64,000 bases of DNA from Amoebophrya sp. A120 (taxonomy: Eukaryota; Protista; Dinoflagellata). Below the pieces are notes generated by a model. The model saw only the letters and a list, made by a program, of their open reading frames with translations, searched no databases and was not told where the DNA came from. Made by a program: the position numbers and the translations under genes. Location of the stretch: assembly GCA_905178155.1 (NCBI GenBank), contig CAJINV010000002.1, positions 8,203,224-8,267,223 of the forward strand, in the 5' to 3' direction. This document shows, piece by piece, positions 662 to 42,263 of this stretch. The first letter of the stretch is position 1. Each line of letters opens with the position of its first letter.

Positions 662-3600
662 ATGCCGAAAATCGCCCTCACCCGCGAGGACGGTCTGAAT
701 GACCAACTCGAGCAGGCCGTTCGAGCGCACTACATGAAGCACGTGTCGGTGTTCGATGACCACATTTCGTATGAGGAGCTCCCGGGTGTCGAGCAGATCA
801 AGGGCCCGGACTTCCAGCGGCTGGCCCGGCTCTGGGATAAGGAAGAGTTCGACTGCTGCTGCCTGCTTGGGACGGAAGCGGCCAAGATCTACGTGGACCA
901 GTGCAAGCACTTCGACTACGCGAAGTTGGTGTGCGTGGGCAAGGGCACACTGGAAGTCTTGCAGAAGGAGAGGAGGAGCAGCAACGTGGTGACGCTGCCG
1001 GACAAGGCCACCGCCGACGGCACCGGGTTAGCGGACCACTTGCCCCTGGCAGTCGGCACCCGCCTGCTGCTGCTCTGTTCGGTGCAGCAGAAAGACGAAT
1101 GTACTTCTTATTCTTGAAGATGTGACGAGGTCCGATAGTTGCTTCGGAATATTATTCGGAGGACGAGCGCTATCTAGAGAGATCACTTTGTACTTCAGGG
1201 TGAGGAAGTGCAGCTTTTTGTTGATGCTGAATAACATAGAAAGGTGCCGTTCTACTTCGCAATCATTTGTTTACATCGTGAACAAGTAGAAGAGTTTACA
1301 CACACTACAGGCAAATCCACTTTAGAGCAGCGGGGTTTCGAGACCACGGTGTTTCAGGTGTATTCCACCCATATCAAATGCAAAAGTGTCTGGGTCTGGA
1401 AGAATAATGCTGTTTTTGCATGACACAGAAGGTCTGGCATGGAAGCTCCAGCATCACAGGTTTGGAGAAGCGTTCACAATGCCGAATCCGCATGACAAAC
1501 CCCTGACTTTTGTGACAGAAAGCGGGCAACTTTTGCTGCCTATGCATGAGAGATTTTTCTGTGTTCTGAAATGCGCATCACAAGTTTGCACTCTTCCAGA
1601 CCCAGACATTTTTGCATTTGATAACCCAGCCCCGCACGGAGCCCCCGACGACCTTCGACTTTTCGAAAGTGGACATCTGGACCTTCGGCAGCGCCTCGGC
1701 CGTGAAGGGCGTCGCGCAATGGAAGACGGCCAACGTGAAGGTCGCGATTTGCGTGAACCTGACCACCGCGAAAACGGCACAACAGCTGCTGCCCGCGAAA
1801 CTGGAGGACGGCAGCGAACTGAAGATCGAGTGTGCGGACAAATCCGGTGTGAAATCCTGGGCCGCGAAGGTGGTGGACTTCCTGAAAAATGGGCCGAGCA
1901 AAGAACAGAAGGACTTCGCGGCCGAGAAGGACAAAGAAGCAGCAGACCACCACCTCCCGGCGAAGAGTAGCGGAGCAGCGACGAGTAAAGCAAGCGCAAC
2001 GACGCCGAACAAAGAGAAGAAGGATATGGCATTCTCAAACATTTGTGTTGAATCATCGCTGTATTTTTACGCAGAATCTGAATCACTCTTCACTTCTAAC
2101 ACGAGGACCCTCCACACGATCCAACTGCTTCTATGCATGACAAGTTCTTGACGCGCTAGAGTAGAGCATGGAACGAATCCGCAATCTCAATCTGTAAAGC
2201 AAGACGCGCAATCGCAAAAATAAAAACCCTTTCACGACCTACTATTTTGCCGTGCGGTGCTTGCAATACAAAATCATGTGCCCTATGGGTCGCGTTTGTG
2301 GTTTCGGTCGGTTTAGCATTACAAAATCATGTAACAGCGATCAACGTAATTTTTGAGAACGTCATCAGCGATGTTCTACTCGCGGGAACAAGCTCCTCCT
2401 CCTCTTCGAGGCCGGGGACCGCGGGAGCCAGGGGGTATGAACTGCAAAAATATCGTACCCGTATAAATGCATTACAAATTTCCTCAGCGTGAGAACTGGA
2501 ATTTGTCATGCTTTTTTACTTTAAGGCCAAGATTTGTAATGCATAAAAGCAATTAGTACGAGTGCGATACTTTTGCAATTCATAGGGGTAGTCCCGGGAC
2601 GAAACGCGGGCAGTACGAGGACCCGCTGGCCGCGTTTTTGGCGTCGACCGGCAGTGGATCCTCAGCTTCGAAATCGAAGGCGGCATCTGCGGAGAAGAAA
2701 GTAGATCCCCTGGGGAACTTGACCTTCGGCGGCGAGAGCGCGTCCGCGAAGAAGAAATTGGTAAGCGCTGATCATGGCGCCGCTGCGACAGGAGCTGGCG
2801 TGGCGGAAGCAAAGCCGGCGACAACGAGTACTTCTACGCCCGGAGCAGGAAATAAAGCTACGGCTGCACTAGAAAGCGGCGCTCCTGAGATAACTTCTGC
2901 CGCAGCAAAAATACAAGACTCCACAACCGTGGGACTATCCACCGCTGGCGGAGAGGACATAAGCAGTAAAAAGCCATCGCTGGGGGCGGAAAAGCAGGCC
3001 ATTCCGGAAAAGCCGCCGGAGCAATCAGTTGCGGGGCAATTAGCCCAATCTTCTGGTGCAGCGGCTTCATCTTCACAACAGTTCTCCTTTTTCTTTCCTA
3101 CGGGTCCGAAGGCTGCAGCGCCCGTCGCAGCGGTGCCGGAGCAGATCGTGGAGGAAGCCATCGTGGATGACCGCAGTCGGGCAAGCACCAAGGAGCCTGC
3201 CGTGGAAGGTGGCAGAGGTGGAATCGCTGGGGGAACCACACCGGCGAAGGCAAAAAGCAAGGCGAAAGCTCCTGGCACGGCAGCGAGCTCCAGTACTGCA
3301 GCCGGACGAGCTGTTGCATCATCATCTTCGAGACCAGCTTCCGCGTCAACAAGGCCTTCCAGCAGTTCTGCGTCGAATCACGCCAGGAACCTCCAAACTG
3401 CGAACAAACAAGCAGGGGCGGCCAAGGCAAAGGCAGCGAGCACTACTCCACCTGCGTACAAGATGATTTCGAGCGAAACGATATCCTGAGTAAAAACGTC
3501 CCCACACCATAGTCAAGATGGGGATTTTGCAACGCAAACCTAGGAGTTTTGGGAGTCACGCATGACAAGTTTCAGTCCGTAAGGTAGTGCAAGTTAGCAA

Positions 3601-5299
3601 GGAAAGCCGCATCACAAATCGACCTGCTGATCCTGTTCACAGCATCACAAATTCCAAAACACGACTGGAAATGGTTCTCATGGGGATGCGCATCACAAAT
3701 GTCTTTGTCATTGCAAATCTGCATTACAACTCTGGTGTGGGTACGTTTTTACACAGGATAAACGAGCAGGACGGCAAACGTGAAAGACAAGTCGATAGCA
3801 GACCTGGCAGCCGGGAAAAACAAAGCTGCAACTACGTCGTCTTCCATATGGCGTTCTCAAGCGTTCCATTCTCAACTGTTACATGAATTTGTGATGCAAG
3901 AATAGGAGAAGCAAAAGAAGGGAGCTTGCACCTCTCGCATTACAAATTTGGCACAGATTTTAGTGCTGTTTAGCCCTTCTAAAATTTGTCATGCGAAGTA
4001 GCTTCATCGTATGGATGCTGATGCGCATTTTGCATGACAAATCATGTAACAGTTGAGAGTGTAACGTTTGAGAGCTCCATATTCCACCTCCGCGAAAGCC
4101 AGCCGGCCGCTCACTCCGGCCTCCGGGAAAGGAGCAAGAACGCGCGCGGCGCCATCGGCGACCGCTGCTAGCGGCTCCACCGGTGCTGGAAAAGCATCTT
4201 CGAGTGCAACTAGTACGGGCACAAGGAGTGCTGCCGGAGCGGGCGGCTCCGGGGCGGATCTGGGAGGAGGTTTGCCCCTACTACTGTTGTTGCAGAATAG
4301 AGAAATTAGAATTACGAAATGCGAAACCGAATTTCATGTACCTGTAGAAGTATGGTGATGGTGGCGTGCTGAGATGCAGATGCTATCTTTCTTTGAGTAA
4401 ACCTACCTACCTGTTATCAACACTATAAACTTATGAAAAATCGACACTTCCCCAGCTCAACAACATCACGCTGGAGCTGGAGGACCCGGTCACTCCGGTC
4501 CGACGTGGCAGGAAGTGAACCAGCTCTGGGAGGTGATTGGTAAATGGGAGTCGAGTTTTTCCGACCTCAAGAAGCTGCACGAAACGGAGGTTGGGGATTT
4601 GAAAAAGCAGCTGCAGCTTGCGTTGAGCGGCGACGGAGACTTTTTGGGTAGGAACATGAACGGCGACGAGCTCGGCAGCCCCAGTCGCGTGGACCGAGGT
4701 GGGCGGCTGCTAGAGAAAAGCGGCGCGGCTTTCGGAGCGTCCGTGCTGGACCAAAAGGCCGACGATGTGCTGGTGTCGAGCTCGTTTGCCACGTTGGACG
4801 CCGCGATATGAGAGTGCACATCTCTCCCTTTCCCTCATGTGTGACGCAACGCGCCAAACTCTTTTAAGCCTGTCTCTGCATGACAATTTCAGGAGGGCCA
4901 AACACAAACTGCACTCCAGTCCAGGCCTGGATTTGTCATGCAGAGGCTGCAGCATTTCCATGTGGATTTGCATTTTCGTTTTCCAGGCGCTATGTAAAAA
5001 TGGTAGAAATTATGCCCCCTCAAATGGGAGAGAGGGGAAGTTTGCTTCCATACGCGAAGGACGAGTACCAAAAACTTCGCCGGGAGTACGAGGAGTTCAG
5101 GAAAGCGAAGTTCGTGGAAATCGAGTTGCTGCACAACAAACTCGCGACCGGAGGTGGAGGCGTGGGTGGGATTGCTGGTACTAGTGCAACTACATCTTTG
5201 ATACCCACACAGCACGCGGCCGAAGTCGCGCAACTCCGAGCGGAAAACGCGCAGTTGGTGAAACAGGTAGAGTACTTCACACTCTATGCGACGGTCTGA
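662..5299 (+). CDS. hemD: Uroporphyrinogen-III synthase (HemD) domain plus a long low-complexity/coiled-coil tail; multi-exon, about 926 aa if it ends at 5299
   Basis: Motifs: IALTREDGLN, VCVGKGT, PDKATA, TLEQRGFETTVFQVYST, FGSASAV. Inferred exons: 662-1100, 1311-1371, 1629-2024, 2372-2435, 2590-3481, 3766-3846, 4087-4269, 4456-4806, 4986-5299. They total 2781 nt and join in frame. GT-AG introns at 1101-1310 and 4270-4455; the other six are TIR elements. The 3' end is uncertain (possible donor at 5267). Confidence 0.8.
1372..1623. mobile_element. Introner-like TIR element, family A (reverse orientation)
   Basis: 32-bp TIR tatcaaatgcaaaagtgtctgggtctggaaga / tcttccagacccagacatttttgcatttgata. 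TSD ACCCA at 1367-1371 and 1624-1628. Removal gives VYSTQPRTE in frame. Confidence 0.95.
2025..2366. mobile_element. Degenerate introner-like element, family B-like
   Basis: Ends tatggcattctcaaa ... tttgagaacgtcatc. Decayed TSD AAGGA/AGCGA. Internal gcatgacaag and gcattacaaa. Removal gives KKDVLLAG in frame. Confidence 0.7.
2436..2584. mobile_element. Introner-like TIR element, family C
   Basis: TIR tatgaactgcaaaaatatcgtacccgta / tacgagtgcgatacttttgcaattcata. TSD GGGGG/GGGGT. Removal gives ARGSPGTK in frame. Confidence 0.9.
3482..3760. mobile_element. Introner-like TIR element, family D
   Basis: TIR tatcctgagtaaaaacgtccccacacca / tggtgtgggtacgtttttacacaggata. TSD AACGA at 3477-3481 and 3761-3765. 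Removal gives SETSRTAN in frame. Confidence 0.95.
3847..4081. mobile_element. Introner-like TIR element, family B (235 bp)
   Basis: About 40-bp TIR tatggcgttctcaa...ctcaactgttacatga / tcatgtaacagttgag...ttgagagctccata. TSD TTCCA. Removal gives TSSSTSAK. Same length as, and similar to, 29403-29637. Confidence 0.95.
4807..4980. mobile_element. Strongly decayed introner-like element
   Basis: Starts tatgagagtgcacatc with a weak partner gatttgcattttcgtt. Internal tgcatgacaat ... atttgtcatgca. Removing 4807-4985 gives DAARRYVK in frame. TSD is no longer recognisable. Confidence 0.55.
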
Positions 5300-12120: not shown

Positions 12121-12464
12121 TGTTAGAAACCTAGACGCACGATAGTAACAACAGAGGTAAACGAGATGGGAACAAGCACTAGCAGTACTAAGTGACTACG
12201 AGTCACTGTGTGTTTGCTATCTGTTATCGACGCACTAGTATGGGTACTAGTCGCAACCTGCAGGGGTGTGATGAGATATCAAGAGGATGGACAATATGCA
12301 TGACAAACAGGATGGCTACGGCTAAGGAGGAGGATCATGGATTTCAGATCGCCGGTCTGTACAAGACCAAGAGATTTGACATCAGACCAGATTTACATCG
12401 TGATTTGCATCGCGCTGTGTTTCTGATCGTCACTAGGTCATTTGGTATTCCGATCTATCCAACA
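12121..12464 (-). repeat. 3' LTR (344 bp)
   Basis: tgttagaaac...tatccaaca, a direct repeat of 17627-17970. Confidence 0.95.
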
Positions 12465-15400
12465 CGATGGCAAATTGGACAAACTGCTGTCCCCGACCCG
12501 GCGAACCCCGCAATCTGCTTGGGAGGGTATTCTAAGCCGATTTCTCGAGTTGCTTTCAAGTAGGCCAAAATCCGTTTTGCTGCTTTCACCGCTTGGGGTG
12601 TCGGATTTACTACTTCTCTCGCAACACGCTGCACCGCGTAGACAATGTCTACCCTGCACATACAAGCGATATATTGCAGGCTACCCACGAGGCTTCGCAG
12701 TGGGAAACTCGTTTCTGGTGCAGAAGTATCAACTTCAGTAGTCTGAATTTCTGGCAATTGTCTTCCAGGAAGTACAGGCGTAGCAACTCCCCGACAATCA
12801 ACCATATTGAATTTCTTCAAAACTCTGTCAATGGCCTCTGCCATGTGGATCCTCATGGTCTTTTTCGATGCGTTGTATTCCAGAGTGGCCCCCAGGAGGT
12901 CGTAGACTTCGCAACCCTTTTCACCTGGTTTCGCTTTCGGCGGGATCACTTTTCCAGGAAATTTGTCCAAAATTTTCCCCATCTCTTTGCCGAGAATTTC
13001 TTCCGTGTCACCACTCATGACACAGTCATCCACGTACACGCTCAACGTAAGAACGCCTTTACGGAACAACCCCGGCTCCCGTTCACACATCTTCCAACCT
13101 AGTTCCTCCAAAGTCTTCCTGTAGGTATCGAACCAACGACGCGGGCTAATTCGAAGACCATAAAGAGACTTCAGTAGGCGCACGACATCACCTCTCGGAT
13201 CAGTGCTCCAGTGCTTCGGAAGACGCACGAAAACTCGCTCGTCACCTAAACTCGCACAAATGAACGCATTTGAAATGTCGAAAAATTTGATCCGTTTTCC
13301 ATTTGCAGCAGCGTCAACAAGTAGGGCTCTACTAGCTGCGTGCGAAATGGTAGGACTGTAAATTTCGCCACAGAGTTCTTTCGACTGTAAGTTTCCCAGT
13401 GCCACCAGCCGCGCTTTGTATGTTCCACATCTTTTCTTCGTGTAGATCACGCACGACGGCACAACTTCGTCGCCTTTTTGTGGTTTCTCGTCTACTGTCC
13501 AGCACTCTTTTGCTAAAAGTCTGAGTCGTTCAACATCGTCGGCCTCTATGTACTTCGGAGCATCAGGATCTCGAAGAATCTGCGCTCTGGTGAGTGACAC
13601 CACATGAGCAAAAACTTCTTCACCTTCTTCCTCAATGCGCTTGGCATGGTACTCGTCCAAGTCTCGACCAAAGTCAAAATCATCAGGCAACTGAAATACG
13701 TTTCCAGCTTCTGCTGCTTTTGGCTTAGGACCTGGCTTTTTGCTTCCCGGTTTGTTCTTTGAACCTTTCGGGCGACCCTTTTTGTTGTTGACAACGACTG
13801 CAGGCTTCGGCTTTTGCTTTCTTTTCTTCTTGACGACCTTGGGCTTTGGGCGGGCGGGAGGTTCGTCAAGCTCTTCCGCTTCGGGAGTAACTACCTCTTC
13901 CTCTGCTTGCGCAGCACTTTCCTCTTTGCCCCCTTCCACTGCTTTGCCCCCTTCCTCGACCTGCTGGTCTCCAGTAGCCCCATTGGGCCCCGAATCACCC
14001 TGGTCACGCGGAGCATCCTGATCGGGCTCATGACTTCCCGAGGGAGCCACCAACGGATCAGGCATGTTCGACGCACACAATTTGTCGGGTGCGGCAAAGG
14101 GTACAAAGGTGCCACGGTTCTTTTCGCGAAGATCGTCAATGTCGGCGATCGTACAAGATTCGTCAAACTTGCAGGATCTATTTTCGATCACAGTGAACTT
14201 CAACCCAACTTTCGTTCGTTTGTCGTCACGCCAAACACCCACTAAATAACAGGAATTTTTCGAATACCCCAAGAATACTCCACGTTCGTACCGAACATCG
14301 AGCGCACCTAAGTCCGTCGATTTCGTAACGTGTTTCCGAGCATAGCAAAGGACTCCGAATTTCTTGAAATATTTGAGCGAAGGCGCGCGATCGTGAACTT
14401 TTTCAAATGGACTCTTTTGCTCTTTCCGGGCTAACCGATTCCAAGTCCAGGCTATATACTTTGAACAATATGGCCAAAGACGAGGATCAACCCCGATCAT
14501 ATTCGCCCGCAAGGCATTTTTCGAAGTTTGGTTCCACCGTTCCACGACTCCATTACGTTGCGGCGTGAACGGCGCAGACGTAGTTGGCTCGATCGGAGGA
14601 CTCTGCTTCAAGCAAGACTTTCTCCAGTCACTTTTCTCGCCTCGAAAAGTAGGATCGTTATCGCTTCTCACCCGTTTGGGCTTTCCAACTTCTAAACACC
14701 ACTCACGCAGACCTTTCCACGCTTCATCCTTTTCCCGGTGAGGATAATTCTCTACCCAGCCATGGAATGTCTCCACCCCTGACAAAAGAAATTTCTCCCC
14801 ATCAAGACCCAAAGGATAACCGTAGGTATGATCCCAATCCACTTGATCTAGCCAAGCCTTTGGCTTACAGTGCTCCGGACGTTCTGACTTACACCCTTCT
14901 TGCCTCGACTTCGCTAAGTCACACAACGGACAGCGTCCATATTCAAGACCGTCAATATGAAAGTGCCCAAACCTTTCATGTTGTCGAAGACGATCGGCAC
15001 GAGTCAGATTCACAAATGCTGGCTCGGACCACGCGGCCCGGCTCTTTCCGTTTTGTAAATCGCCAGCCGTATCCAGCTCGCTCAAGCTGTGAAACGCAAA
15101 GTCTATTTGCGGCAAATTTGTTAAAGTGTCCCGGCGCATCGGAATTTTGAAACCTGTTTTCTTCTTTTGGAGGTAGAGCGCGTCTCTCCCCTCAAAAACT
15201 ACCCGGCAGTCATTTTCGTCGTTCAAAAGACTTACCGACACCAAAAACAACTTTTCGTCAGGATGGTATAGACCACCCATTAAACCTAAAGAGTTATGTT
15301 GGAAGTAACCACGGTAGGCGGGAGTGTCTAACGTTCGGTCGGCAACCGTTAACGTTACTGGATCATCCCAAAACACAATCTGAAAACAACTCAAGTCCCC

Positions 15401-16306
15401 TGTCATGTGGTGCGAGGCACCACTTTCAACAACTGCCGTTGTTTGAGTACCATCCGGGCGGATGGTAATCCCATGGGCGCTTTTCCCGTTTCCCTTCGAC
15501 AAAAGTGCAAATGTCAAAGACGAAACAGCGCCGGCGGACTTTTCGCCGTTTTGATCTGTTTGACCCTTTTCCCGCTCTTTTGACCAATCACCAAACCAGT
15601 CTTGTGCCTCCTGGTTTTCGTTTTTCTTGTCCCTGCCCTGGTGGTGACCATGCACCAAGACAGTGAAGCCCTTAGGAGTATCGGCAAAATCAAAAATTTG
15701 CTGATCTTTCACCCCGTTGCATGATTCCCCTACAAACTTGCACAAGTTAAAATAAGTCCAATCCATGCAGTTTCCTTCTGCTTTACGGGCGGAATCTGCC
15801 ACCTCGTAACTTTTGTTCTTTGCCATCTCATGCGGGTTCGCTTTTCTTTTTAAATTGCTGAGATCATACAAGCGCGAAACCCCATGCAGAATAGGCATTC
15901 TTTGTAATGAATTTTCGTTCTTTTCAGGTACTTTCACGTTCTTAACAGGAGCGGAATCAACTTCAAATTTTACATTGGAAATCTTACAAGTAGTGCCGGT
16001 TGATTCGTAAACAGGGCGGATAGATGCGTTTTTCATCATACATTTCGATACGTTTTCGTTGGAAATAGAGGCTGTTTCAAGTACACTGTGATTGGATATA
16101 GGTGCTGTTTCAAGACCATCAATTTTTGTTTCGAGTACTGTAGCATTGTAAATAGAGGGAGATTGTAGATTTTGAATGCATGTAACGTCACTACTTTGAC
16201 CAGAAGTAGAGCCTGTTTTAACAACATGAACATCATCAGCATCGGTTTTTCGACGTTTAGCAGCATGAGAAATTTGACAATTCTCATCGGAACCCGGCCA
16301 GCTTCG
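12455..16306 (-). CDS. pol: Copia pol (protease, integrase, RT), truncated before RNase H
   Basis: Protease VESGASHHM. Zn-binding HERFGH..CPLC. Integrase RSDN..PQRNGVVER. RT YKARLVALG, FDISNAF, LKSLYGL, YVDD, AAKRILAYLK. The frame is open from 16306 (translated by hand). Confidence 0.9.
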   Translation of the reverse strand, partial: RSWPGSDENCQISHAAKRRKTDADDVHVVKTGSTSGQSSDVTCIQNLQSPSIYNATVLETKIDGLETAPISNHSVLETASISNENVSKCMMKNASIRPVYESTGTTCKISNVKFEVDSAPVKNVKVPEKNENSLQRMPILHGVSRLYDLSNLKRKANPHEMAKNKSYEVADSARKAEGNCMDWTYFNLCKFVGESCNGVKDQQIFDFADTPKGFTVLVHGHHQGRDKKNENQEAQDWFGDWSKEREKGQTDQNGEKSAGAVSSLTFALLSKGNGKSAHGITIRPDGTQTTAVVESGASHHMTGDLSCFQIVFWDDPVTLTVADRTLDTPAYRGYFQHNSLGLMGGLYHPDEKLFLVSVSLLNDENDCRVVFEGRDALYLQKKKTGFKIPMRRDTLTNLPQIDFAFHSLSELDTAGDLQNGKSRAAWSEPAFVNLTRADRLRQHERFGHFHIDGLEYGRCPLCDLAKSRQEGCKSERPEHCKPKAWLDQVDWDHTYGYPLGLDGEKFLLSGVETFHGWVENYPHREKDEAWKGLREWCLEVGKPKRVRSDNDPTFRGEKSDWRKSCLKQSPPIEPTTSAPFTPQRNGVVERWNQTSKNALRANMIGVDPRLWPYCSKYIAWTWNRLARKEQKSPFEKVHDRAPSLKYFKKFGVLCYARKHVTKSTDLGALDVRYERGVFLGYSKNSCYLVGVWRDDKRTKVGLKFTVIENRSCKFDESCTIADIDDLREKNRGTFVPFAAPDKLCASNMPDPLVAPSGSHEPDQDAPRDQGDSGPNGATGDQQVEEGGKAVEGGKEESAAQAEEEVVTPEAEELDEPPARPKPKVVKKKRKQKPKPAVVVNNKKGRPKGSKNKPGSKKPGPKPKAAEAGNVFQLPDDFDFGRDLDEYHAKRIEEEGEEVFAHVVSLTRAQILRDPDAPKYIEADDVERLRLLAKECWTVDEKPQKGDEVVPSCVIYTKKRCGTYKARLVALGNLQSKELCGEIYSPTISHAASRALLVDAAANGKRIKFFDISNAFICASLGDERVFVRLPKHWSTDPRGDVVRLLKSLYGLRISPRRWFDTYRKTLEELGWKMCEREPGLFRKGVLTLSVYVDDCVMSGDTEEILGKEMGKILDKFPGKVIPPKAKPGEKGCEVYDLLGATLEYNASKKTMRIHMAEAIDRVLKKFNMVDCRGVATPVLPGRQLPEIQTTEVDTSAPETSFPLRSLVGSLQYIACMCRVDIVYAVQRVAREVVNPTPQAVKAAKRILAYLKATREIGLEYPPKQIAGFAGSGTAVCPICHRVG

Positions 16307-17389
16307 TCAGTTGGGACAATCCTTACGAACATGTCCAAGCTGCTTGCACTTGTGACGTTTGATCTTGGATTTGTCTCCGCCGCCGCCTTTTCCCTTCTGC
16401 TGGTCTCCCTTGCCTCCTTTTCCGCCGCCCTTGTTGTTCTTCTGGTTGTTGTTCTTGTACGGGTGCTGGTTCTTGTTGACCCAGCGGCCACCCTTCTTCC
16501 CCTTCTGTGCAACAACTTCAGCAGCGATCGCTTTGTGATCGGCCTGCGTCAAGTTGAGAGAAGCGGGCTTTGCGGTGTCCTCTTCGGTGCCCCCGTCTTT
16601 CAAGACGGATTCGTACTCCTCCGCCAACTTCAACAAATTATCATTGTCCGGCTTGTCCTGGATGACGTGCGGCATGATAAATGAATCGTAGGCGTTCCCG
16701 AGGTTGTAGAAGCATCCGAAAGTCATCAACTCGCTGCGGAAGACTTCACCGCCCAGCTCATCCCGAAAGATGTTTTGTTTCCGCTGAACGAACTCCCTTA
16801 CCGTTTGGTCTTTGTCTTTCCGGGTGGTTAGTAAATCCTTAAGCGACCGCATTCGAGCGAATTTGGTCCGCTTATCGAATTCCAACAACAACGCACCCCA
16901 AGCCGTACTGATGCAAACGACTGTCTTTTTCTTCACGACCTCCAGCGCGTCCCCAGTCAACGCCACGCACAAGCGAGCGAAGAACTGCGCACCGATGGCC
17001 CTCGTGTCGTCCTTCCATCCGTCAATAGAAGGCGTTTTCAAGAAGTTGTCGATCAGTGTCAAGATCCCCAACATCTGCAACAAGGCTTGCACCTTAAACC
17101 GCCAGTCCGACCATCCCTTCGGATTTCCGTCGTAAGGCGGAATAGAGTACTTTCCCACCTGGTTAGTGTCGACCATTGTGTTCAAAAGAAAACAATAATC
17201 GCGCTTAAATACAAATTCCCAATTTGTATCCCAATCGAGATTGTGGAAATAGTTTGCAAATTGTGGGTCGCTAAGGTCTTCAACGTTCCAACCTTTGGAG
17301 CCGTAACACTTCGCGCCTAAAATGCACAAGTCTCGACGCTTTCCAAGTTCTCTAGCTACGCAACTAGCACCAAAATGTCTGCGTGACAT
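16307..17389 (-). CDS. gag: Copia gag (probable start at 17176) with a C-terminal zinc knuckle
   Basis: YDGNPKGWSDWRFKVQALL at the N-terminus. Knuckle RHKCKQLGHVRKDC, with the first Cys replaced by Arg. Confidence 0.85.
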   Translation of the reverse strand: MSRRHFGASCVARELGKRRDLCILGAKCYGSKGWNVEDLSDPQFANYFHNLDWDTNWEFVFKRDYCFLLNTMVDTNQVGKYSIPPYDGNPKGWSDWRFKVQALLQMLGILTLIDNFLKTPSIDGWKDDTRAIGAQFFARLCVALTGDALEVVKKKTVVCISTAWGALLLEFDKRTKFARMRSLKDLLTTRKDKDQTVREFVQRKQNIFRDELGGEVFRSELMTFGCFYNLGNAYDSFIMPHVIQDKPDNDNLLKLAEEYESVLKDGGTEEDTAKPASLNLTQADHKAIAAEVVAQKGKKGGRWVNKNQHPYKNNNQKNNKGGGKGGKGDQQKGKGGGGDKSKIKRHKCKQLGHVRKDCPN

Positions 17390-17626
17390 TTAATTTCTTT
17401 TCTAAATTTTGCAGATAAACTTCTTAAAGTTGTGGGGGTGCGTTTTCAACAAATACGTTCAAATTTGTAATGCTAACTCTGAAATTGTACAAGTAAATCT
17501 TACAAGATGTAGTGGCTGTTTTTCAAATTTTCTACACAAGAAAATCAGTAAAAATTTGTAATGCAGGCGCAAGTTTTCTAAACAAGAAAACTAATAAATT
17601 TTGGCTGAATAAAGGTGCGACTAGAT

Positions 17627-17970
17627 TGTTAGAAACCTAGACGCACGATAGTAACAACAGAGGTAAACGAGATGGGAACAAGCACTAGCAGTACTAAGTG
17701 ACTACGAGTCACTGTGTGTTTACTATCTGTTATCGACGCACTAGTATGGGTACTAGTCGCAACCTGCAGGGGTGTGATGAGATATCAAGAGGATGGACAA
17801 TATGCATGACAAACAGGATGGCTACGGCTAAGGAGGAGGATCATGGATTTCAGATCGCCGGTCTGTACAAGACCAAGAGATTTGACATCAGACCAGATTT
17901 ACATCGTGATTTGCATCGCGCTGTGTTTCTGATCGTCACTAGGTCATTTGGTATTCCGATCTATCCAACA
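17627..17970 (-). repeat. 5' LTR (344 bp)
   Basis: Direct repeat of 12121-12464, followed by the TSD CGATG. Confidence 0.95.
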
Positions 17971-20900: not shown

Positions 20901-22466
20901 GCAAGAGCAAGAGGAGATTTTCTGCAAATGTATAGGATAAAAACAATAACTCATTGTTCCTTACGATCTTCGACCAGCAGGATGAAAATACCCGAACAAG
21001 ATCTTGTTCCCTACGTTTGTTTGTCTTTACCCTACTAACCAGAAAGAAAATATCCCACAAATTAGTTGCTCATACCTACCTCCATACAATTCATACAAAT
21101 ATGAGTGAAGTCCTTCTCTGTAATGCCTGACATTGCCCTTCTATTAGTCTTCACATTAAATCATGCTGAAGAAAGACAAGGTCAAGTAGGATCCACACAA
21201 TTTTTATGTTGAGCTATGACGTGTCAGACGTCATTGAGGTCTTCAGTAGCGATGTGTAAAGTGGTCCAATATCTGAGTAAATGTAGTTTTCTCAGTAGAA
21301 ATACCTCGATGCCAATGATCTCACGAAGCAACCTTGGTTGAAATCATCAATCAACTTCCTTCCTTCAAAAATACAGTACACAGAGTGTAGCTGCACTTGC
21401 AACACAAGCACAGAAGTTTATAGTTTTATTCTACCCGCCCTATTTTTCCATCGGATCTGTGTATGATTTTTGTGATGCAGCATTGCAGCCGTGTATGTGA
21501 TGTCCATGAAATTCTGTGTAGATGAGTTATGCTTACATCCATTTTTCGCTTTTATAGCATGAAGATCTATTCTCATATGTATTGTAGAAATTTCCATCGC
21601 GCGGGTGCTCGTCCTGTTTAGTGTGTGAGCTGTTATATGTGTGGCAGTAATGAGTTTCAGTTTAATTAACCCAAAAAAACAACTACATATTGCCACTGTC
21701 TCTGTGTGGTAAAAAGACAAAAAGCGTTTCGAAGCGTCGGACTCCCGTGCTTGCACAAAGTTGCATCTACAAATCCAGCCGGCTTCGCAAAGCTCCTAGA
21801 GCTGCGCACTCAGTAAGCGAAGGTAGTAAGTCATAACAAGGTCTTATTTAGTGCGGCTGGTCTTTAGAAAAATTGCTTCTTTCTGTAGGAGCGACGGCCA
21901 CAGGAAGGTACTTATATGCCTTGCACGGTAGTAAGTACTTGATTTTCATTTTCAGGCTTGGCGTTCCCCTTGCATTTCATTGCACCCGACCGCACAGTAG
22001 AGCTAGAGCTGACAAAGGTTCTTAATATCAGGAACTGAAGATAGACGCTTCTTTGTTGACGAGACGACCAAAAGAGCACCGGGAAGAGCTCGTGGGCTTT
22101 CTGTCGGTGGCACCCATTCGGCTGCCCGACGAAGCAGAGGACAGAGTCGACGGTGACGCGACAATCACTGCAATTTGCTAGTACTTGTGACACCAGTACG
22201 TAGCAGCGTCGTAAGCAGAGCTTTGTTTTGTGCGAGCCTCTCGCTGTACTTGCGGTGCATAGACATACTACTTACTGGACTATCTTGGCACTTAAATAAG
22301 GAAACTACGACATACTCACACCTAGGAAAAAGCCGTCCTCAACAAGTTTCTCGAATTTTTTAAAGGCGGAGGAAAACCTACGGGAAGAACATAGCGCGAG
22401 CATAGTCATTCCAAGGCCTAGGCCCCAACGCCCATTAAATACAGTCACTTGGAAGAAGAACCGAGA

Positions 22467-25023
22467 ATGGATATTGATGATGCTGTGGGGTGGGAGCACT
22501 ACAAAGACGGAAAGTTCTGGCACCATGCGGTGGCGGGAGCGTCGGCTGGGGTGTGCGAGCACCTCATCATGTACCCCTTTGACACCATCAAGGTACTTTA
22601 GTACTTCGTTTATCTTTATAGAGCTACTTCTAGTCGTTGTCGTATGATATCAGCTTCAACGGCGTGTAAAAGATGACAAAAGAGAACACAAGCTTCCGAT
22701 TCGTGCCCGTGCCTCCTCCCAGAAATGTTTTGTGTTACCGACTGTCCCTGAAAGCTTGTAATTTCATTGTGTGCACAGAAACATTTACGGCACGAGGATG
22801 ATGTACGGAACGCAAGTGTAGTTTCATTCATAATCACAACAGACGAACCTTCAAGCGGAGCGACCAAAGCAATTTTCCTCTCCTTCGGGAGGAGGACCTC
22901 CGGGAGGACCGCCAGGATCATCCTGTGCCGCCGCCTGCCCGACTAAAATAAACCCTGGCACCAGCTCCTGCACATCAGCAACGAAAGCAGGGGCGGCGAC
23001 TTCCAGCAGCGCATCCTCGTCGTGTGCACCAGCAGCGGGGACCTCGTCCGCGTCAACGGCCAGCAGCCGAGTGAACTTCAATGCAACTACTACAGGAGCA
23101 GCAGGTAGTGGCGCAGCAGCGACTGCGCCGTCGTCCACGCTCTCTAGCACCATAACCCGCGGGAACTGCTCGCCCTTCATGACCAGTCTTCAGCAGCGCA
23201 CGGCGACCACAGGAATTATTCCCACCACCGCGGTCGCGAGCTCCAGCACCGCGGGAGGTACAAGAACAGGAGCTGCTCTTGGTGCCAACCCCGGGTCCCG
23301 GTCGGTGTACAGTAACACGTTTGCCGCGTTTCGCGCGATCAAGAATGAGGCCGGCTGGAGCGGCTTCTACCGCGGCGTGTCGGCGATGGCGCTGGGCTGC
23401 GTACCGGCGCACATCGGCTACTTCTGCGCCTACGAGACAGTCAAGGGCTTTGGGAGGAGTAGCAACAGTTCTAGGGACCAGACGAACAACGCAAGGAATT
23501 ACAGCAGCGCGGATAAAGATAACCCGGGTGGACATAAAGACCAACATCTTCCAAACGGCCAGAACAATAGTGCAAGTTCCTCTTCCCCCTACTCCCCCAC
23601 CGCATTTTTGGCCAGTAACCCCTGGCTGATTGGCATGGGCGCGGGCTGCGCCGCGAGCTTCGCGCACGATCTGATCCTAACCCCGCTCGACGTCGCGAAG
23701 CAGCGGATGCAGCTGCGGGCGGGGAGCCACACCCGGTCCTGCGCGGAGTGCGTGAAGCACGTCGTGAAGACCGAGGGCTATCTGGCGCTGTATCGGTCTT
23801 TCCCTGTCACGCTGTTCAGCAACGTCCCTTTTTCCGCCATTCTCGTAGGGTGCAACGAGCAGCTGAAGGAGCAGTTCGACGTGAACACCACCTGCCAGAT
23901 ATCACAAGGAAAAATCCCCCCTCCCCATATCAAACGGAAGTTTCTGATGCTGGATTTGCGTATACAAATCAGGTTTGTCTTGCAGTAGAGGACTGCAGGC
24001 CCCTGCCAAGCCTGAGTAGAGAGGTTTTGGCCTAGGCGCTTAGCATGAGAAACGTCTATGCTGTAGGCCCCACAGCATCACAAACCGCCTGCATAATGCG
24101 GCAGAGCCTGCGGAGTTGTCTTCTTGCAAGACAGACGTGATTTGTGGTGTCAAATCAGCAAGACAAATTTTCGGAAACATACCTTTTCGATATGGGGAGC
24201 GGGGATCTTTCCTCTCAATACCAGACGTGGGACGAGATGCAAACCAAACTGCCCATGTACTTTACGCTCGCCGGCGTCAGCAGCGGCGTGGCCGCCGTGT
24301 GCACCCAGCCCCTGGACGTGATAAAAACCAGGATCCAAACGCAAACCTGCCTGTTGAACAAAACCTCGGTAAGGTACCACGGCATCATCGACGCGGCGCG
24401 GACCATCTACGCGGAAGAGGGACTCAGGGCGTTCTTCAGGGTACAGTGTTACTTGCCTGCTTAAATACTACTTACACGATTTGAAAGCGTAGGAGTTCTG
24501 TTTAGCGTCGTCAGCACTTGACGTTTTCCTTGCGCATTTCTATGTGTCGTGTGTGCGTATTTGCAAGATAAAAGCGTATGAATAGTATATCGAAATAAAG
24601 ATAAAATCCTATTCTGAATTGTGAATGACAATGATTTGAAGATGTTTCTGAACCAAAACAGGGCTCCGCCGCTCGGGCGCTGGTCGTGATTCCCAGCTGC
24701 GCGATTTCATGGGCGAGTTACGAAACCATCAAGAGTTTTCTATCAAATATAAAAATGTCTGGGTCTGGAAGATTGCAACTTGTGATGCTGCGTCTGCATT
24801 ATGCAAAAATCTGTATTGCATGAACAGCAAAAGAGGTCTTTGGCCCCGGCGAGAGGGCATTTCTCATGCGGTATAGGCATCAGAAAGCCCTCACAAGATC
24901 TGTGATGCTAGGGCATGCATCGCAGACATCAGGAGTCATGCAAAATGTGCATGACAAACCTTGCATCCTTCCAGACCCAGACATTTTTACATTTGATACT
25001 TTCTCGTCCGCAACGACTTCTAA
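22467..25023 (+). CDS. Mitochondrial carrier, mitoferrin (Mrs3/4-like)
   Basis: Motifs: AGASAGVCEHLIMYPFDTIK, GCVPAHIGYF, AHDLILTPLDVAKQRMQL, QPLDVIKTRIQTQ, IPSCAISWASYE. Exons 22467-22592, 22843-23899, 24226-24440, 24662-24740, 25004-25023 (2 GT-AG introns and 2 TIR elements). Confidence 0.9.
23900..24220. mobile_element. Introner-like TIR element, family E
   Basis: TIR tatcacaaggaaaaatcccccctccccatatc / gatatggggagcggggatctttcctctcaata. TSD CCAGA. Removal gives TTCQTWDE. Confidence 0.92.
24741..24998. mobile_element. Introner-like TIR element, family A
   Basis: TIR tatcaaatataaaaatgtctgggtctggaag / cttccagacccagacatttttacatttgata. TSD TTTTC/CTTTC. Removal gives IKSFLVRNDF*. Confidence 0.93.
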
Positions 25024-27133: not shown

Positions 27134-30100
27134 ATGTTCCACCAGCCCGGCGCCCCACACTATGCGTCTTCGCCCCCCTTGGCGATCGAGCGTCTGTCCG
27201 GAAACCCGATTTTGGTTCGCTGCGCTCCACCGACGACCGCAGCTGTGCCAGAAGCAACCGCAAGTATCAATCCGTCCCAAAATGCCGACGCTGCCTACGA
27301 GTGTTTGAGTCCGGTGGAGCACCGGGTGAGGGCGGAGGAAGCGGCGGCAGACACGACCATTTCGGCGTCGCACCTGCAGAACCTGCAATCCATTACGCAG
27401 GAAAATTTCAGCAACTTCACGTTCGAGCCTGAGCAGCGGTTTCTGCCCAGTACTAGTTTTGGAACTACGGGAGGTTTTGAAAATTATGGTAGTGCCGACA
27501 ACTACTATGAAGGGCAGCTGGCGAACAACACCGTTTTCCTCGAGGAGCCCAACTCGTCCTCCCCGTCGGGTTCTACTTCCCGAACAGGCGTTACCACCAT
27601 CCGCAGATTGCGTCGCCGGCTCCGGGCGTTCCTCGCGAAGCAGGAGGCGTTTCGGCCGGTCCCAGACAAGGTTCTGGTGCTGATCCATGCACCCAAGGGG
27701 TTCGGCGGGGCGGGGAGTGGCCCGGAAGAGGACAGTTACATGGACGACAATTACTACCCGGAGGACGAGAACAACTTCAACGAGGACGACTTCGACGAGG
27801 ACATGCCCGATGCCTGCGATTCCAACGACCTTTCGCGCGAACAGTCCTCGCGCGCGGTCGACTTCCGAGCGATGTTTGGCCTCGGCGGAGAACAAGAAGA
27901 CCCGGCGGCTATTAACAACAAAAATGGCGCAGCAAGTGCAGGTCAAAAGCAAAACCAAAGCCACCGCGGGGGTGGTTCTACGTTTGTCTACGATCCGACG
28001 CCCCTGGGTTTCGACAACCAGACGACCAATGCGCGAGCAGTCGGAGCAGGACACGTGCATGGACAACCACCAATGAACCGAGTTCCACACCATAATCGGG
28101 GACCACAGCACCAAATACCCCCTTCGCAGCCCGGTCTTGGCCAGCCGCCGCAGTTACGGATGCGGGTTATTCCAAGGCAATACCACCAAGAGGTCTTTGC
28201 GAAAACGGCTATTTTGCTGGAGAACACGCAGCATATCGAGATCAACGTCATCAATAAAAAGTTTCTGTTTCCCAATTCCTTCGACCTTGTTTACGACACC
28301 AAGGAAGATGTTGTGTGGCTCACGGAAGAACAGGACGGGGACAGTTCACATCAGGACGACGCGCAGAATAAAGTTGATGATCGTGATCCTCAGGACCAGA
28401 CGGGCGAAGGTGCAGCTGTTGCCGAAGGCAAAGCAATAAATCCAGAACCTATCAAGGAACTTCCCATCCACGAGCTGCAGCTGGTTCTCCGGTCTTTTCC
28501 GGATCTGCACGTAAGAAAAATCTATCAAATGTAAAAATGTCTGGGTCTGGAAGAATCCAACTTGTCATGCTGATTTTGGATTGTAAAAAAATCTGTATTG
28601 CTTGAGCAGCAAAGAGAGTCCAAGTCTTGCTACAAGGAAAGAGCATTTGTCATGCGGTATAGGCATCAGGAAGCCCTCACAAAATCTGTGATGCTAGGGC
28701 ATGCATCACAGACATCAGGAGCCACGCAAAATGTGCATGACAAACCTGGCAATCTTCCAGACCCAGACATTTTTACATTTGATAAAATGGTCGAGCAGAT
28801 GAAGGACGTGATCGATATTGGTGGCAGACTGCAGTTACCAAGTGCAAATATGTCTGGGTCTGGAAAAATTGGAATCTGTATTGCCTGTCTTGCACTCCTA
28901 TAAAATCTGTATTGCGTGACCGACAAAAGCGCGAATTCTTCGTCATGCAAAAACGCTGTTTCTCATGCGCATTACACATGAGGAAGCGTCCTGATTTTTT
29001 GTCATGCTTGGCTGCTCCCAGGAGTATGCTCAGTCATCGCCACTTAGCATCACAAGTTTCCATACCCAAACATATTTGCATTTGATAGCAGTTGATCCGG
29101 CGAAAGTCGCATTCTGTCGCCGACTGGGAGTCGGCCATTTACCAAGCCAGCTTGGAGGAGTTGAACAGTGGTGAGTGGGTGATGCAAAATTTGGCGCACC
29201 TCGTTTCCCCCTCCTCTACCTCCGGGATGCTGGATAATTCTAGCGGTGCTGGTAAGGAAGTCGAACAGGAGCCAGACCGCGAGCGTAGCAGCGACGCTGC
29301 GCAGCCTTTCACGGACGCGCGGATCGTCCGTCTGGAGCAGAACAAGTCGGACGATCAGCACGGGCGGTTTCTGTCCTGCAACCCGAACCCGAAGTACCTG
29401 AATATGGCGTTCTCAACTGTTACATTCTCAACTGTTACATGAATTTGTGATGCAAGAAGAGCGAAAGTAAAAGGGCGGACCTTGCAACTCTAGCATCACA
29501 AGTTTTGCACAGATTTCCATCCTGTTTAGCCCTTCGGAGATTTGTCATGCGCAGCCGCTTGGTCGTGTGGTTGCTTATGGCAATTTTGCATGACAAATCA
29601 TGTAACAGTTGAGAATGTAACATTTGAGAACGCCATACTGAAGGGGCATTTTCCGAGCAATAAATCCGCGCTGCAGAACCACCCGATCTACAACGCAAAC
29701 ATGAACGCGACCTACATCAAGTCTCTGCAGGACCAGCAGAACAACAAGGAGCCGTCCTTGCTGATGGTGTTGCTGGACCTGATTTTCCGGTTGTACCAAA
29801 AGTACCACGCCGAGCCCATCACGGAGGAGTGGCGCGTGGCGCTGGACCGCCACATTGTGGAGTGCCAGTGCGTGATTCTGCTGTTGCTCGACACGCCCAT
29901 GTTTAAGGACCTGGGTTGTAATACCTCAAACAACCGAAACGGCGGGGCGGGAACAGCAACAGGGTCGTCGAACAACCAGAGGCCGGCCGCTCCGAAGACC
30001 GAGTCGCCACTGCACGAGCTCTTGCGTATGTACTACCTTTTCTCCCGGAGTACGAGCAACTTCCCCGGGTCTGAAAAGTACCGGAGTTTGCGGTATTTCG

Positions 30101-36750: not shown

Positions 36751-36909
36751 TTTCGATTTAGTTAGTAGCAAGAATGCTGCGATATAGCGATACCCATAGA
36801 TAACTCCGGTCATCTTGACAATTTTTTTCGAAAGCCGACGAATGTATGATTTGCTGTTAGATGGGACGTGCAGCGGTAAAAGTAATTGTAATATCTTTTC
36901 AGTCAACGG

Positions 36910-40249: not shown

Positions 40250-40695
40250 TTCAGTCAACGGTTACGGTGGACAGTAAATTGTGGTTCTGGAGGGAACTAC
40301 GCATACGCTACAGGTACAGAAGGAAAAGCCGTCCCTGTAGTTGACGCACTTGTTCATGCTTTTTGCGAGAGTTCTCCTGCAGTGATTTTTCAGCGACAGC
40401 AGGTCAGGGAAGAGAGGCAAGTGTATTTGGAGGCGGAGACACGAGAGCCGAGAGTTTTGAATTTCTCAGGATGTGGACGAAATTCAGCTCCCGTCAGGCT
40501 TTTTCATTGTGGAAAGCAGCTTCGCTAAAGAATGGGCGTGATGCCAGCGCCGTCTGAGTAGAGGCCTTTCGACGTCTTCTCTGTGCCTGACATTTGTCTT
40601 TTCCATTAGTTGTTGAAAGCAGTTGCGTTTTTTGTCGAGAAAAGTTTTTGTTTTTCCATTGTGATTGTACCACTTACATATTCATCAAAACCAAA

Positions 40696-42263
40696 ATGAT
40701 GCAAATTTTCCTGAGGTCCGGAAGCGTATCAGCTCGACCGGGGACTGTCTACATCAGGTCGGGACCATTCAGAGGACTGCCGCTGGTCTCATCGACTGTT
40801 GAAAAAAGCTACGGAGTTGTTTTGCCGCGTTCCTCAAATAAACTGACTGCTGCGCAGCTACCAATTCCACAAGGAGCGCAGCACGGAACAAGTAGGCCAC
40901 ACAGCTCCACGACGGCGACAAGCAGCTCCTCATCTTCGTCCACTTCGGGCCGATCGGAATTTGATGACGATTTGTTGAACTTCGACAGGGACAGCCAAAA
41001 AAAGCAACGAAACCGCATACCATCTGTTTTCCGCTTTCTCGGCATGGAGGATAAAATTGGAGTGTTTGTTGAGAAAAGCAGGATGCTGTTCCCAGGGACG
41101 AGTGTTTTCACATCGCGAATTTTTCAAGTACTTGCATCGAGCAGAGGAAGTGCAGGAACTTCTACGTCTTCAACCTCCTCCGGTTTCACGGCCCTGCACC
41201 AAACCTCGGGGTCCCTCGATGCCAACAAAATCTTCGCGCGACGGTTGATCCTGTACGGTGGCGCGATTTGGGTTTTCTCCCTCGGCGCGCTATTTTTCAT
41301 GGTCCCGTTCTTCAAACTGATGTGCCAATCCGGGGGCGATAACGGGGCCGCGAACCGGAACTTCGTCGGCCACAAAACGTACAACCATCTGGAGAAGGCC
41401 GAAGACCCGGTTTGTGCAAACCGATTGGTGAAGGTGAACTTCAACGGCACCGTCGCGACCAACCTGGACTGGGAGTTCCAGCCGCAGCAGCATTCGCTCT
41501 ACGTCGCGGTGGGCGAAACCGCGTTGGCGTTTTTCCGGGCCAAAAACATCGGCACCGAGCCGGTCATCGGAACCTCCACTTACGCGATTTTTCCGCCAGA
41601 GTGCGGGTTGTTCTTCAACAAAATCCAGTGCTTCTGCTTCGACGAGCAGCTGGTGAACCCGGGCGAAGAGGTGGACTTGCCGATTTTGTTCTACATCGAC
41701 CCGGACTTCGCCTACGACAACCGCGTTGCCAAAGTGGAGGAGTGCGAGTTGAGCTATCTGTTCATGCCGAGCGAGTCGAAGGTGCCGACCGATTACGCGG
41801 AACTGCAGGAAATTATTACAATGAAAAATGCCCCCACCCCCCCCACTTGGGGGCATTTGTATTGCAAACCTTTCCAAATGAAACATTCGCCCTCTTGCAT
41901 CTATCAGCATCACAGATTTCCGATCGTGAATAGCAGAAATTTGCATTGCAAAAGATCCCAGCAAGACCGGCGCTTGTCATGCAAGCGATGCGACACACAC
42001 CGAGACTCTGCATCAGAAAGGTTCATACTCCTGTCATGTATGACAAAAAGTTTTCATTTGGAAACTTTGCATCACAACTTTTTGCAACTTTGGGGGTGGG
42101 GGCATTTTTCCTCGCGATAGAAATGCGGGAATTCCAGTTGGAAAAAATGAAGGCGCGGGAGGAGGAAATTGGGAGGCAAAACAAGGTGGTTCCGAAGACG
42201 CTGGGAAATTTAAACAGTTTGGAAGACATCAAAAATCATCCTGCGATTGCGGCAGCAATTTGA
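40696..42263 (+). CDS. COX11: Cytochrome c oxidase assembly protein COX11/CtaG
   Basis: TM helix ending VPFFKLMCQ, then WEFQPQQ, GETALAFF, FNKIQCFCFDEQ, LPILFYIDPDF. Exons 40696-41813 and 42125-42263. Confidence 0.95.
41814..42119. mobile_element. Introner-like TIR element, related to family E
   Basis: TIR tattacaatgaaaaatgcccccaccccc / gggggtgggggcatttttcctcgcgata. TSD GAAAT. Removal gives LQEMREFQ. Confidence 0.93.

What the first reader, a model, noticed from the sequence alone, without database searches (positions are those of the whole stretch)
1415..42080. Shared internal motif GCATNACAA, on both strands, in elements with unrelated TIRs
Seen: gcat[g/c/t]acaa or its inverse ttgt[c/g/a]atgc occurs in every small element, usually several times counting near-matches. 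Family D has it at 3560, 3609, 3642, 3690 and 3721. Family C has 3 copies in 149 bp, family B has 4, and it persists in the decayed 2025 and 4807 copies. It also appears in the Copia LTR (about 12298) and leader (about 17464, 17556). I did not see it in the giant element. Inference: a binding site for a common factor (transposase, chromatin protein or excision factor), conserved while the TIRs diverge.
Basis: seen in the sequence. Interest (0 to 1): 0.8.

Follow-up and report, generated by a model that had tools for sequence, protein, structure and literature searches.

The report
Phased DNA motif in introner transposons
Nearly all families of the small jumping elements that form unusual introns in the parasite Amoebophrya carry the same regularly spaced 9-base motif on either strand; it likely binds a protein that helps the elements spread rather than marking them for splicing, which gives a bait for finding their unknown mobilising machinery.

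Summary
In detail: 37 exact GCATNACAA (chance 2.4); 32 lie in 12 small elements, 4 in a Copia LTR/leader, none in the 6.2-kb giant. The window is Amoebophrya sp. A120-type DNA, and the elements are its introners (TAT termini, 5-bp duplication). All 12 are removed exactly in RNA-like contigs. In 627 kb of a second assembly with the same families, 390 of 421 motif-blind-called elements and 51 of 57 families carry the motif. It shows no strand bias to the mRNA and follows spacing rules: 31-33 nt head-to-tail, 48-49 diverging, 40-42 or 48-51 nt from the end. Motif bases vary fourfold less than spacers among copies, yet private mutations in the largest families hit them at the spacer rate. The motif-free giant is joined across in the annotated protein. 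Best reading (0.6): double-stranded binding sites that likely boost mobilisation, not a splice signal. The protein is unidentified; a host factor is slightly favoured because the motif is also the top 9-mer outside elements. One age clock shows slower decay in old copies, so a post-insertion role is not excluded. The TIRs are related, not unrelated. I found no description of the motif in the papers searched.

The parts
1372..1623 (.). Introner, TIR type A, duplication ACCCA; exact motifs 1490+, 1575+; in the HemD gene
   Evidence: removed in RNA-like contig and in P0022
2025..2366 (.). Decayed introner (B-like TIR), duplication 3 of 5 intact; exact motifs 2135+, 2316+
2436..2584 (.). Introner family C, 149 bp; motifs 2469+, 2503-, 2534-; in this family the outermost sites point inward
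3482..3760 (.). Introner family D; five motifs all on + (3560, 3609, 3642, 3690, 3721), spacings 49/33/48/31
3847..4081 (.). Introner family B; motifs 3889-, 3937+, 3986-, 4032+ (alternating, spacings 48/49/46)
4807..5052 (.). Decayed introner (TIR 30% off its family consensus); motifs 4878+, 4933-
12121..18044 (-). Copia retrotransposon; motif once per LTR (12298, 17804) and twice in the leader (17465, 17556)
21470..21478 (-). Single motif outside any recognised element
23900..24220 (.). Introner in the mitochondrial carrier gene; exact motif 24075+ and four near matches
   Evidence: joint 23894>24221 in 4 of 4 runs
24741..24998 (.). Introner, TIR type A; motifs 24780-, 24949+
   Evidence: joint 24736>25000
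28523..28784 (.). Introner, TIR type A; motifs 28562-, 28647-, 28735+
   Evidence: joint 28516>28784
28836..29087 (.). Introner, TIR type A; motifs 28999-, 29047+
   Evidence: joint 28830>29088
29403..29637 (.). Introner family B; motifs 29445-, 29493+, 29542-, 29588+
   Evidence: joint 29397>29638
41814..42119 (.). Introner in COX11; motifs 41974-, 42069+ and five near matches
   Evidence: joint 41808>42120
54754..60907 (.). Giant TAT-TIR element, perfect duplication GAACA, no exact motif (negative control); the annotated protein joins across it

Best explanation
W-GCAT-B-ACAA-R-T is an orientation-independent, regularly spaced internal motif of the Amoebophrya A120 introners, and it is likely an array of double-stranded-DNA binding sites for one protein that helps the elements be copied to new sites, not a signal for their splicing. 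Shown: the elements have TAT ends, an A-tract and a 5-bp duplication, insert without target or strand preference, and leave the RNA with exactly one duplication copy. Inferred: one integrase-type transposase acting in trans recognises the shared termini. A sequence-specific protein would bind the motifs cooperatively, three helical turns apart (31-33 nt) and at one of two phases from the end (40-42 or 48-51 nt), and would favour assembly of the transposition complex. Elements with good arrays would found the large families, while inserted copies lose sites close to neutrally. The sites would act as an enhancer rather than a strict requirement, since the giant moved without them. The protein is not identified; I lean 55:45 to a host DNA-binding factor over a domain of the transposase. 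Splicing likely reads the termini (N-TAY at the 5' end, like the GTAY of canonical introns here) and the TIR hairpin.
For: Breadth: 390 of 421 motif-blind-called elements, 51 of 57 families, and 1340 of 1410 hits inside elements. No strand bias: 355 sense against 403 antisense sites in 359 oriented elements (p=0.09); family orientation to the mRNA 156:158. Mirror symmetry: exact outward-pointing site 38-54 nt from the end at 373 of 826 ends, inward at 89; almost none in the first 39 nt. Phasing with one copy per family: 45 end-phased sites against null 9.0, 28 same-direction pairs at 31-33 against 5.5, 13 diverging pairs at 48-49 against 1.4; 0 of 5000 permutations reach these (families share ancestry, so the p-values are optimistic). 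Selection between copies: motif 4.6% against spacer 20% and N position 24%. Little selection after insertion: private substitutions in the five largest families 84 observed against 71 expected; duplication-decay clock ratio 0.73, CI 0.44-1.14; exact sites kept in 62% of coding-flanked (325 copies) against 69% of non-coding-flanked (38 copies) cases, p=0.2; copies with all sites broken are not depleted, 60 against 47. No covariation of N between inverted sites, so no sign of RNA pairing. An A120 family with TA/TA ends, 5-bp duplication and Copia-like ORFs is published (PMC12130899). Precedent for cooperative binding of subterminal motifs: PMC1636448 and PMC10368747 (abstracts).
Against: No binding was shown and no autonomous partner was found. 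The large candidates looked like chance pairings of small elements, and the 21 integrase relatives scanned carry Copia-type domains, with no context linking them to TAT ends. Farhat et al. report no transposase in A120. The giant has a perfect TIR and duplication but no motif. On a TIR-asymmetry clock the motif decays at only 0.60-0.67 of other conserved columns (CI 0.34-0.91 and 0.49-0.87). In the 25 most diverged copies 40% of sites are exact against 10% neutral. Over all 17 aligned families the singleton ratio is 0.73. The motif is the top-ranked gapped 9-mer in non-element non-coding DNA even after extra masking (41 against 10.1, rank 1 of 21,862) and occurs in introns with GT..AG ends and no clear TIR. 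Family size does not track motif number (rho 0.15, p=0.25). Family C has inward-pointing outer sites.
Confidence: 0.6

Rival explanations
1. A host protein bound to the motif on chromosomal DNA marks inserted elements and some ordinary introns for co-transcriptional removal or for a chromatin state, so the motif matters after insertion. Several redundant sites per element would hide the selection.
For: Slower decay in old copies (0.60-0.67; 40% against 10% exact in 25 copies). Both decayed window copies keep two exact sites. Only 2 of 595 copies lack any site within one mismatch. About tenfold excess in short non-coding gaps and candidate GT-AG introns (6 against 0.7 expected). Strand independence fits this reading too. 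U1 snRNA is reported missing (PMC7789003).
Against: Neutral singleton rate in the largest families. Equal retention in coding and non-coding insertions, and no depletion of copies with all sites broken. The motif-free giant is joined across in annotated P0021. Old copies come from older founder elements, which inflates the comparison columns.
Confidence: 0.17
2. The elements move through RNA using Copia reverse transcriptase and integrase, and the motif is a packaging or priming signal shared with the Copia leader.
For: 5-bp duplication and no target preference. Two sites in the Copia leader, both on its sense strand (0.017 expected, p=1.5e-4) and one per LTR. Families with one-directional arrays exist.
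Against: Mirror-symmetric, helically spaced placement. TIR architecture with TA rather than TG ends. A Copia variant contig has deletions at 17557 and 17564, at one leader site (table 4). The two leader sites may come from one local duplication.
Confidence: 0.1
3. The motif is a passive relic of one ancestral element, spread by internal duplication, with no function.
For: All families share termini and probably ancestry. Inserted copies lose sites near-neutrally.
Against: The eight fixed bases vary 4.6% while the central N varies 24% and spacers 20%. Spacing rules persist across families whose spacers do not align.
Confidence: 0.07
4. The motif is a branch point or splicing enhancer on the pre-mRNA (its UnAC core resembles the branch consensus, recalled), with inverted copies allowing either orientation.
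For: The last + copy lies 32-43 nt before the 3' end in 8 of the 12 window elements. A near match lies 38 nt before the AG of canonical intron 24441-24661.
Against: Antisense sites are as common, equally placed at the 5' end, and as well kept (singletons 2.2% sense against 1.7% antisense, p=0.17). 8 coding-inserted family D copies have no sense site within one mismatch, and 6 have no antisense one. 22 of 232 coding-inserted elements lack a sense site. Outside elements the antisense form is the commoner, 32:16.
Confidence: 0.04

Closest known systems
Amoebophrya A120 introner elements (Farhat et al. 2021, PMC7789003; Gozashti et al. 2025, PMC12130899)
   Same: Same elements: TAT start, A-tract, short direct repeats, non-canonical junctions, many families. 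Window proteins are 100% identical to proteins named Amoebophrya sp. A120.
   Different: In what I read, neither paper describes an internal motif: 0 hits for 'gcat' in the main text and for gcat/acaa/ttgt in the supplement text of PMC7789003; 0 for 'subterminal' in PMC12130899. Logos and alignments are pictures that I could not see.
Subterminal transposase-binding repeats: pogo-like Lemi1/Emigrant MITE (PMC1636448, abstract), hAT Hermes (PMC10368747, abstract), Ac/Ds (PMC3260210, search listing); CACTA TnpA sites (recalled)
   Same: Short repeats inside the TIRs, in both orientations, shared by otherwise dissimilar non-autonomous elements and spaced for cooperative binding.
   Different: A 9-11 base site that starts 32 or more bases in and runs through the interior. 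The same site occurs in an LTR retrotransposon and in host non-coding DNA. The carriers are spliced introns, and the binding protein is unknown.
IS3EU/GingerRoot and Ginger-type integrase-like DNA transposons (PMC10045372, passages)
   Same: TA..TA termini as in IS3EU/GingerRoot. A120 family 38 has TA/TA ends, a 5-bp duplication and Copia-like ORFs.
   Different: The duplication is 5 bp here and usually 6 bp there. No transposase was found to place these elements.
Host cofactors of transposition such as IHF or HMGB1, and host transcription-factor sites in LTRs (recalled, no call)
   Same: A host DNA-binding protein would be used by unrelated mobile elements.
   Different: Here a sequence-specific site repeated 2-7 times in most families; no such factor appeared for dinoflagellates in my searches.

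Membership tests
Amoebophrya A120 introner elements | TIR starting TAT with an A-tract about seven bases later | tested here: met
   Window elements; A in 71-87% at positions 11-15 over 57 families; B-type TIRs keep TAT but have a weaker A-tract
Amoebophrya A120 introner elements | Short direct repeat overlapping the exon/intron borders | tested here: met
   5-bp duplication, perfect in 396 of 552 full-length copies
Amoebophrya A120 introner elements | Removed from RNA at non-GT-AG junctions | tested here: met
   6 of 6 joints in 4 of 4 RNA-like runs; contig gaps of 515 and 616 nt match removal of the other 6. The runs are guessed to be RNA; they also skip two GT-AG introns
Amoebophrya A120 introner elements | Repeated, non-coding families | tested here: met
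   57 families among 413 elements under 700 bp, largest 85
Subterminal transposase-binding repeats (hAT/pogo/CACTA type) | Several short repeats inside the TIRs, both orientations, at set distances | tested here: met
Subterminal transposase-binding repeats (hAT/pogo/CACTA type) | Conserved in spreading lineages, decaying in inserted copies | tested here: inconclusive
   Met by singletons in large families and by the duplication clock; slower decay by the TIR-asymmetry clock
Subterminal transposase-binding repeats (hAT/pogo/CACTA type) | Bound by the element's own transposase | not testable with these tools
   No autonomous element found; needs a binding assay
Subterminal transposase-binding repeats (hAT/pogo/CACTA type) | Needed for transposition | tested here: inconclusive
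   The giant with perfect ends lacks the motif; 6 of 57 families, all single copies, lack an exact site
Spliceosomal branch point | On the sense strand only, near the 3' splice site | tested here: not met
   355 sense against 403 antisense, mirrored at the 5' end; coding-inserted copies without a sense site
Spliceosomal branch point | Kept by selection after insertion, sense copies more than antisense | tested here: not met
Spliceosomal branch point | Complementary to U2 snRNA | not testable with these tools
   The U2 alignment is a picture in the supplement; no Rfam hit in the window
IS3EU/GingerRoot | TA..TA termini | tested here: met
   definition from PMC10045372
IS3EU/GingerRoot | 6-bp target duplication | tested here: not met
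   5 bp
IS3EU/GingerRoot | IS3-like DDE transposase without HHCC | not tested
   No autonomous element available

The most novel reading that the evidence does not exclude
One host DNA-binding protein reads W-GCAT-B-ACAA-R-T arrays in TIR elements, in Copia LTR/leader DNA and in ordinary introns, and couples transposition to intron removal. It would be a DNA-level, strand-independent licence that lets tens of thousands of insertions both spread and be spliced in a cell reported to lack U1 snRNA.
Probability: 0.15. Interest if true: 0.88.

Novelty: new variant of a known kind. Interest (0 to 1): 0.58.

Why it matters
How Amoebophrya's roughly 30,000 A120 introners (PMC7789003) move without a reported transposase, and how they are spliced without GT-AG, are open questions. 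A single motif with spacing rules, shared by 51 of 57 families, argues for one mobilising system behind the many families. It also supplies a defined bait to isolate the protein and a signature to find autonomous partners and decayed copies. The tests separate the two problems: the motif behaves as a DNA-level spreading signal, while the splice information appears to sit at the termini (cut after duplication base 3 or 4; TAY tolerated at the mRNA 5' end only). If the binder is a host protein shared with Copia and ordinary introns, it would be a new link between transposition and intron definition.

Tried and rejected
Branch-point reading: my first idea, rejected on strand and conservation tests. 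RNA pairing between inverted motifs: no covariation at N. Family D folds (z -4.6), but its sites all point one way and cannot pair with each other. DNA-level excision: the DNA run X5 carries the element junctions at single-copy depth, and none of its 15 listed joints is a precise excision (136 further joints not shown). A strict 16-nt alternating lattice: suggested but only partly borne out, since converging pairs peak at 34. Automatic calling of GT-AG introns was noisy (it missed the window's verified introns; 47 of 55 strand-concordant), so intron densities are approximate. A search for residual TIRs around 22 outside motifs scored no better than controls. Viral collection: TIR pattern 0 hits; the motif-pair pattern gave 120 hits taken as chance and not used. 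No RNA joint was seen across the LINE. Splicing of the Copia was not tested, because only one LTR was in the laid stretch. No autonomous element found. The relation of the second assembly to the window's strain is unresolved (exact look-up blank; element nearest-neighbour identities alike). Earlier-findings look-ups were empty. A literature search for the bare motif gave 304 papers; the 20 listed are unrelated.
Full report
Observation. The motif is present as described: 37 exact matches against 2.36 expected, and 0 of 100 shuffles reach 37. Of these, 32 lie in 12 small elements, 4 in a Copia (one per LTR, two in the leader) and 1 elsewhere. The giant, the LINE and two GC-rich blocks have none.

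What the window is. Two searches returned proteins 100% identical to window exons and named Amoebophrya sp. A120. The elements match the introners of Farhat et al. (PMC7789003; I read the abstract, passages, sections 10, 16 and 36, and supplement part 2 of 5): TAT start, A-tract and short direct repeats. Here the repeat is a 5-bp duplication. Runs X1-X4 are only guessed to be RNA (2 samples, 1 study), but they skip two GT-AG introns. All four skip each of the 6 elements in 22350-42340 by element length plus 5. In the HemD gene, the gaps in one X4 contig (515 and 616 nt) equal the lengths predicted by removing the other six elements with one duplication each, using the canonical intron borders of P0022. 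The annotated protein P0022 joins the same way. Mismatched duplications place the cut after base 3 or 4 of the left copy. The DNA run X5 keeps the elements; its summed depth on one TIR (2.7 million against about 45) suggests many thousands of copies, though it is not a copy number.

Larger sample. The sample is therefore chosen by that TIR, and its relation to the window's strain is not established. Counts below include the window. A caller blind to the motif found 421 elements (1 false call in 380 kb of shuffled DNA), of which 390 have an exact site. The 413 elements under 700 bp form 57 families, 51 with an exact site. With profile models, 1340 of 1410 hits lie in elements. Transcript direction in these loci was inferred from a codon model, not from RNA; it was consistent within nearly every locus, and 368 of 419 elements could be oriented.

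Strand. There are 355 sense and 403 antisense sites, and families lie 156:158 to the mRNA. Family D, whose sites all point one way, sits in coding sequence both ways: 8 copies have no sense site within one mismatch and 6 have no antisense one. The giant, without the motif, restores a 941-codon frame when removed with one duplication, and the annotated protein P0021 reads across that junction. This is annotation, not reads, but the junction is non-canonical and so probably came from transcripts (inference). A strand-specific RNA signal is rejected.

Geometry. Sites almost never fall in the first 39 nt, and they peak, pointing outward, at 40-42 and 48-51 nt from the end. Outward sites occur at 373 of 826 ends and inward ones at 89. 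Same-direction pairs lie 31-33 apart, diverging pairs 48-49 (and 16), converging pairs 34. With one copy per family these exceed all 5000 permutations, with the caveat that families share ancestry. Three helical turns and two end phases about a turn apart suggest a protein array on duplex DNA (inference). Family C is an exception, with inward-pointing outer sites.

Selection. In the 17 families with 5 or more copies, motif columns differ from consensus in 4.6% of cells, spacers in 20% and the N position in 24%. Private substitutions in the five largest families show no protection (84 against 71), whereas the smaller families give 0.67 and all together 0.73, as do the TIRs; I read this as unsampled subfamilies. 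With duplication decay as a clock the motif erodes (2.9, 4.8, 9.3%), at 0.73 (0.44-1.14) of other conserved columns; 34 copies with 3 or more duplication mismatches were left out of that ratio and show less motif erosion, 5.7%. Coding and non-coding insertions keep sites equally, and fully broken copies are not depleted. Against pure neutrality, a TIR-asymmetry clock gives 0.60-0.67 with intervals below 1, and the 25 most diverged copies keep 40% of sites against 10% expected. Selection is thus strong among founder elements and weak or absent afterwards.

Outside the elements. The motif is the top-ranked gapped 9-mer in the remaining non-coding DNA: 47 against 10.5, and 41 against 10.1 after further masking. 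These sites avoid A at position 5 and have near-match neighbours 3.4 times as often as controls, often at 31-34 or 49-51 nt. Several sit in introns with GT..AG ends. They may be relics of old elements or host sites; I cannot separate the two. The Copia sites exceed chance (leader p=1.5e-4, LTR p=0.014) but lie far from the LTR ends, which fits a host factor better than integrase binding (inference). One leader site is disrupted in a Copia variant.

Mechanism. The best reading (0.6) is phased binding sites for one duplex-DNA-binding protein that boosts mobilisation in trans by an integrase-type transposase. Gozashti et al. (PMC12130899; passages and 41 of the 58 A120 rows of one dataset; files 13 and 14 not searched) list an A120 family with TA/TA ends, a 5-bp duplication and Copia-like ORFs, which is a candidate source. 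I found no autonomous element: the 21 relatives of the window's Copia integrase that I scanned, of 150 listed, carry Copia-type domains and have no usable context. The rivals are a post-insertion host role (0.17), RNA-mediated movement by Copia (0.10), a passive relic (0.07) and a branch point (0.04). Splicing more likely reads the termini: TIR positions 1-2 differ in 5 of 838 cells at the mRNA 5' end, position 3 varies there (16 of 416) more than at the 3' end (4 of 414, p=0.011), and there is no target-site or GT/AG preference.

Known and new. The elements are known introners. Subterminal repeats bound by transposases are a known kind (PMC1636448 and PMC10368747, abstracts only). The ends resemble IS3EU/GingerRoot but the duplication is 5 bp rather than 6 (PMC10045372, passages). 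I found no description of this motif in searches, in text look-ups of PMC7789003 and PMC12130899, or in passages of PMC9860276 and PMC11282704. Figures and picture-only supplements (logos, U2 alignments, element examples) could bear on this and were not visible, and subscription papers are not in the library.

Verdict. Real, general and apparently undescribed: a new variant of a known kind, with the binding protein open. Interest 0.58.

Noticed in passing
window 54754-60907: Foldback-like giant with TAT TIRs and a perfect 5-bp duplication: arrays of short repeats at both ends around a 256-bp tandem array. The annotated protein joins across it, so it appears to be a 6.2-kb non-canonical intron.
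   Followed up: partly
window 11976-19264: The Copia (12121-18044, minus strand) interrupts an ORF that is in frame if the element is removed, with no target duplication visible. Its pol ends in reverse transcriptase and runs into the LTR, with no RNase H seen. Whether it is spliced out is unknown.
   Followed up: partly
window 1101-1310, 22593-22842, 24441-24661 and loci L121-L260: Canonical introns seen here begin GTAY while introners begin N-TAT, with the cut after duplication base 3 or 4; TIR position 3 varies at the mRNA 5' end only. Both intron types may share a TAY signal at +2 to +4.
   Followed up: partly
L154:2395 and L177:702: Introns with GT starts whose borders show 4-of-5 duplications and ATA- or ATT-like ends, possibly old introners turning into canonical introns (read by eye).
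   Followed up: no
window 36861-40250: Intact 1093-codon LINE ORF with a GAT-repeat tail, no motif, not bridged by RNA-like contigs.
   Followed up: partly
window 33000-35000 and 44150-46700: GC-rich non-coding blocks (about 60-69% GC) without the motif; the first has no cover in runs X1-X4.
   Followed up: no
L170:1024-1097: Three exact motifs spaced 31 and 34 nt in a repeat not among the modelled families, next to sequence resembling the 3' tail of the window's LINE.
   Followed up: no
run X8 laid on window 1592-1623: 89 reads from another sample carry the type A TIR preceded by GCATGACAA in a different internal sequence, from what looks like one locus, with no cover of the genes.
   Followed up: no
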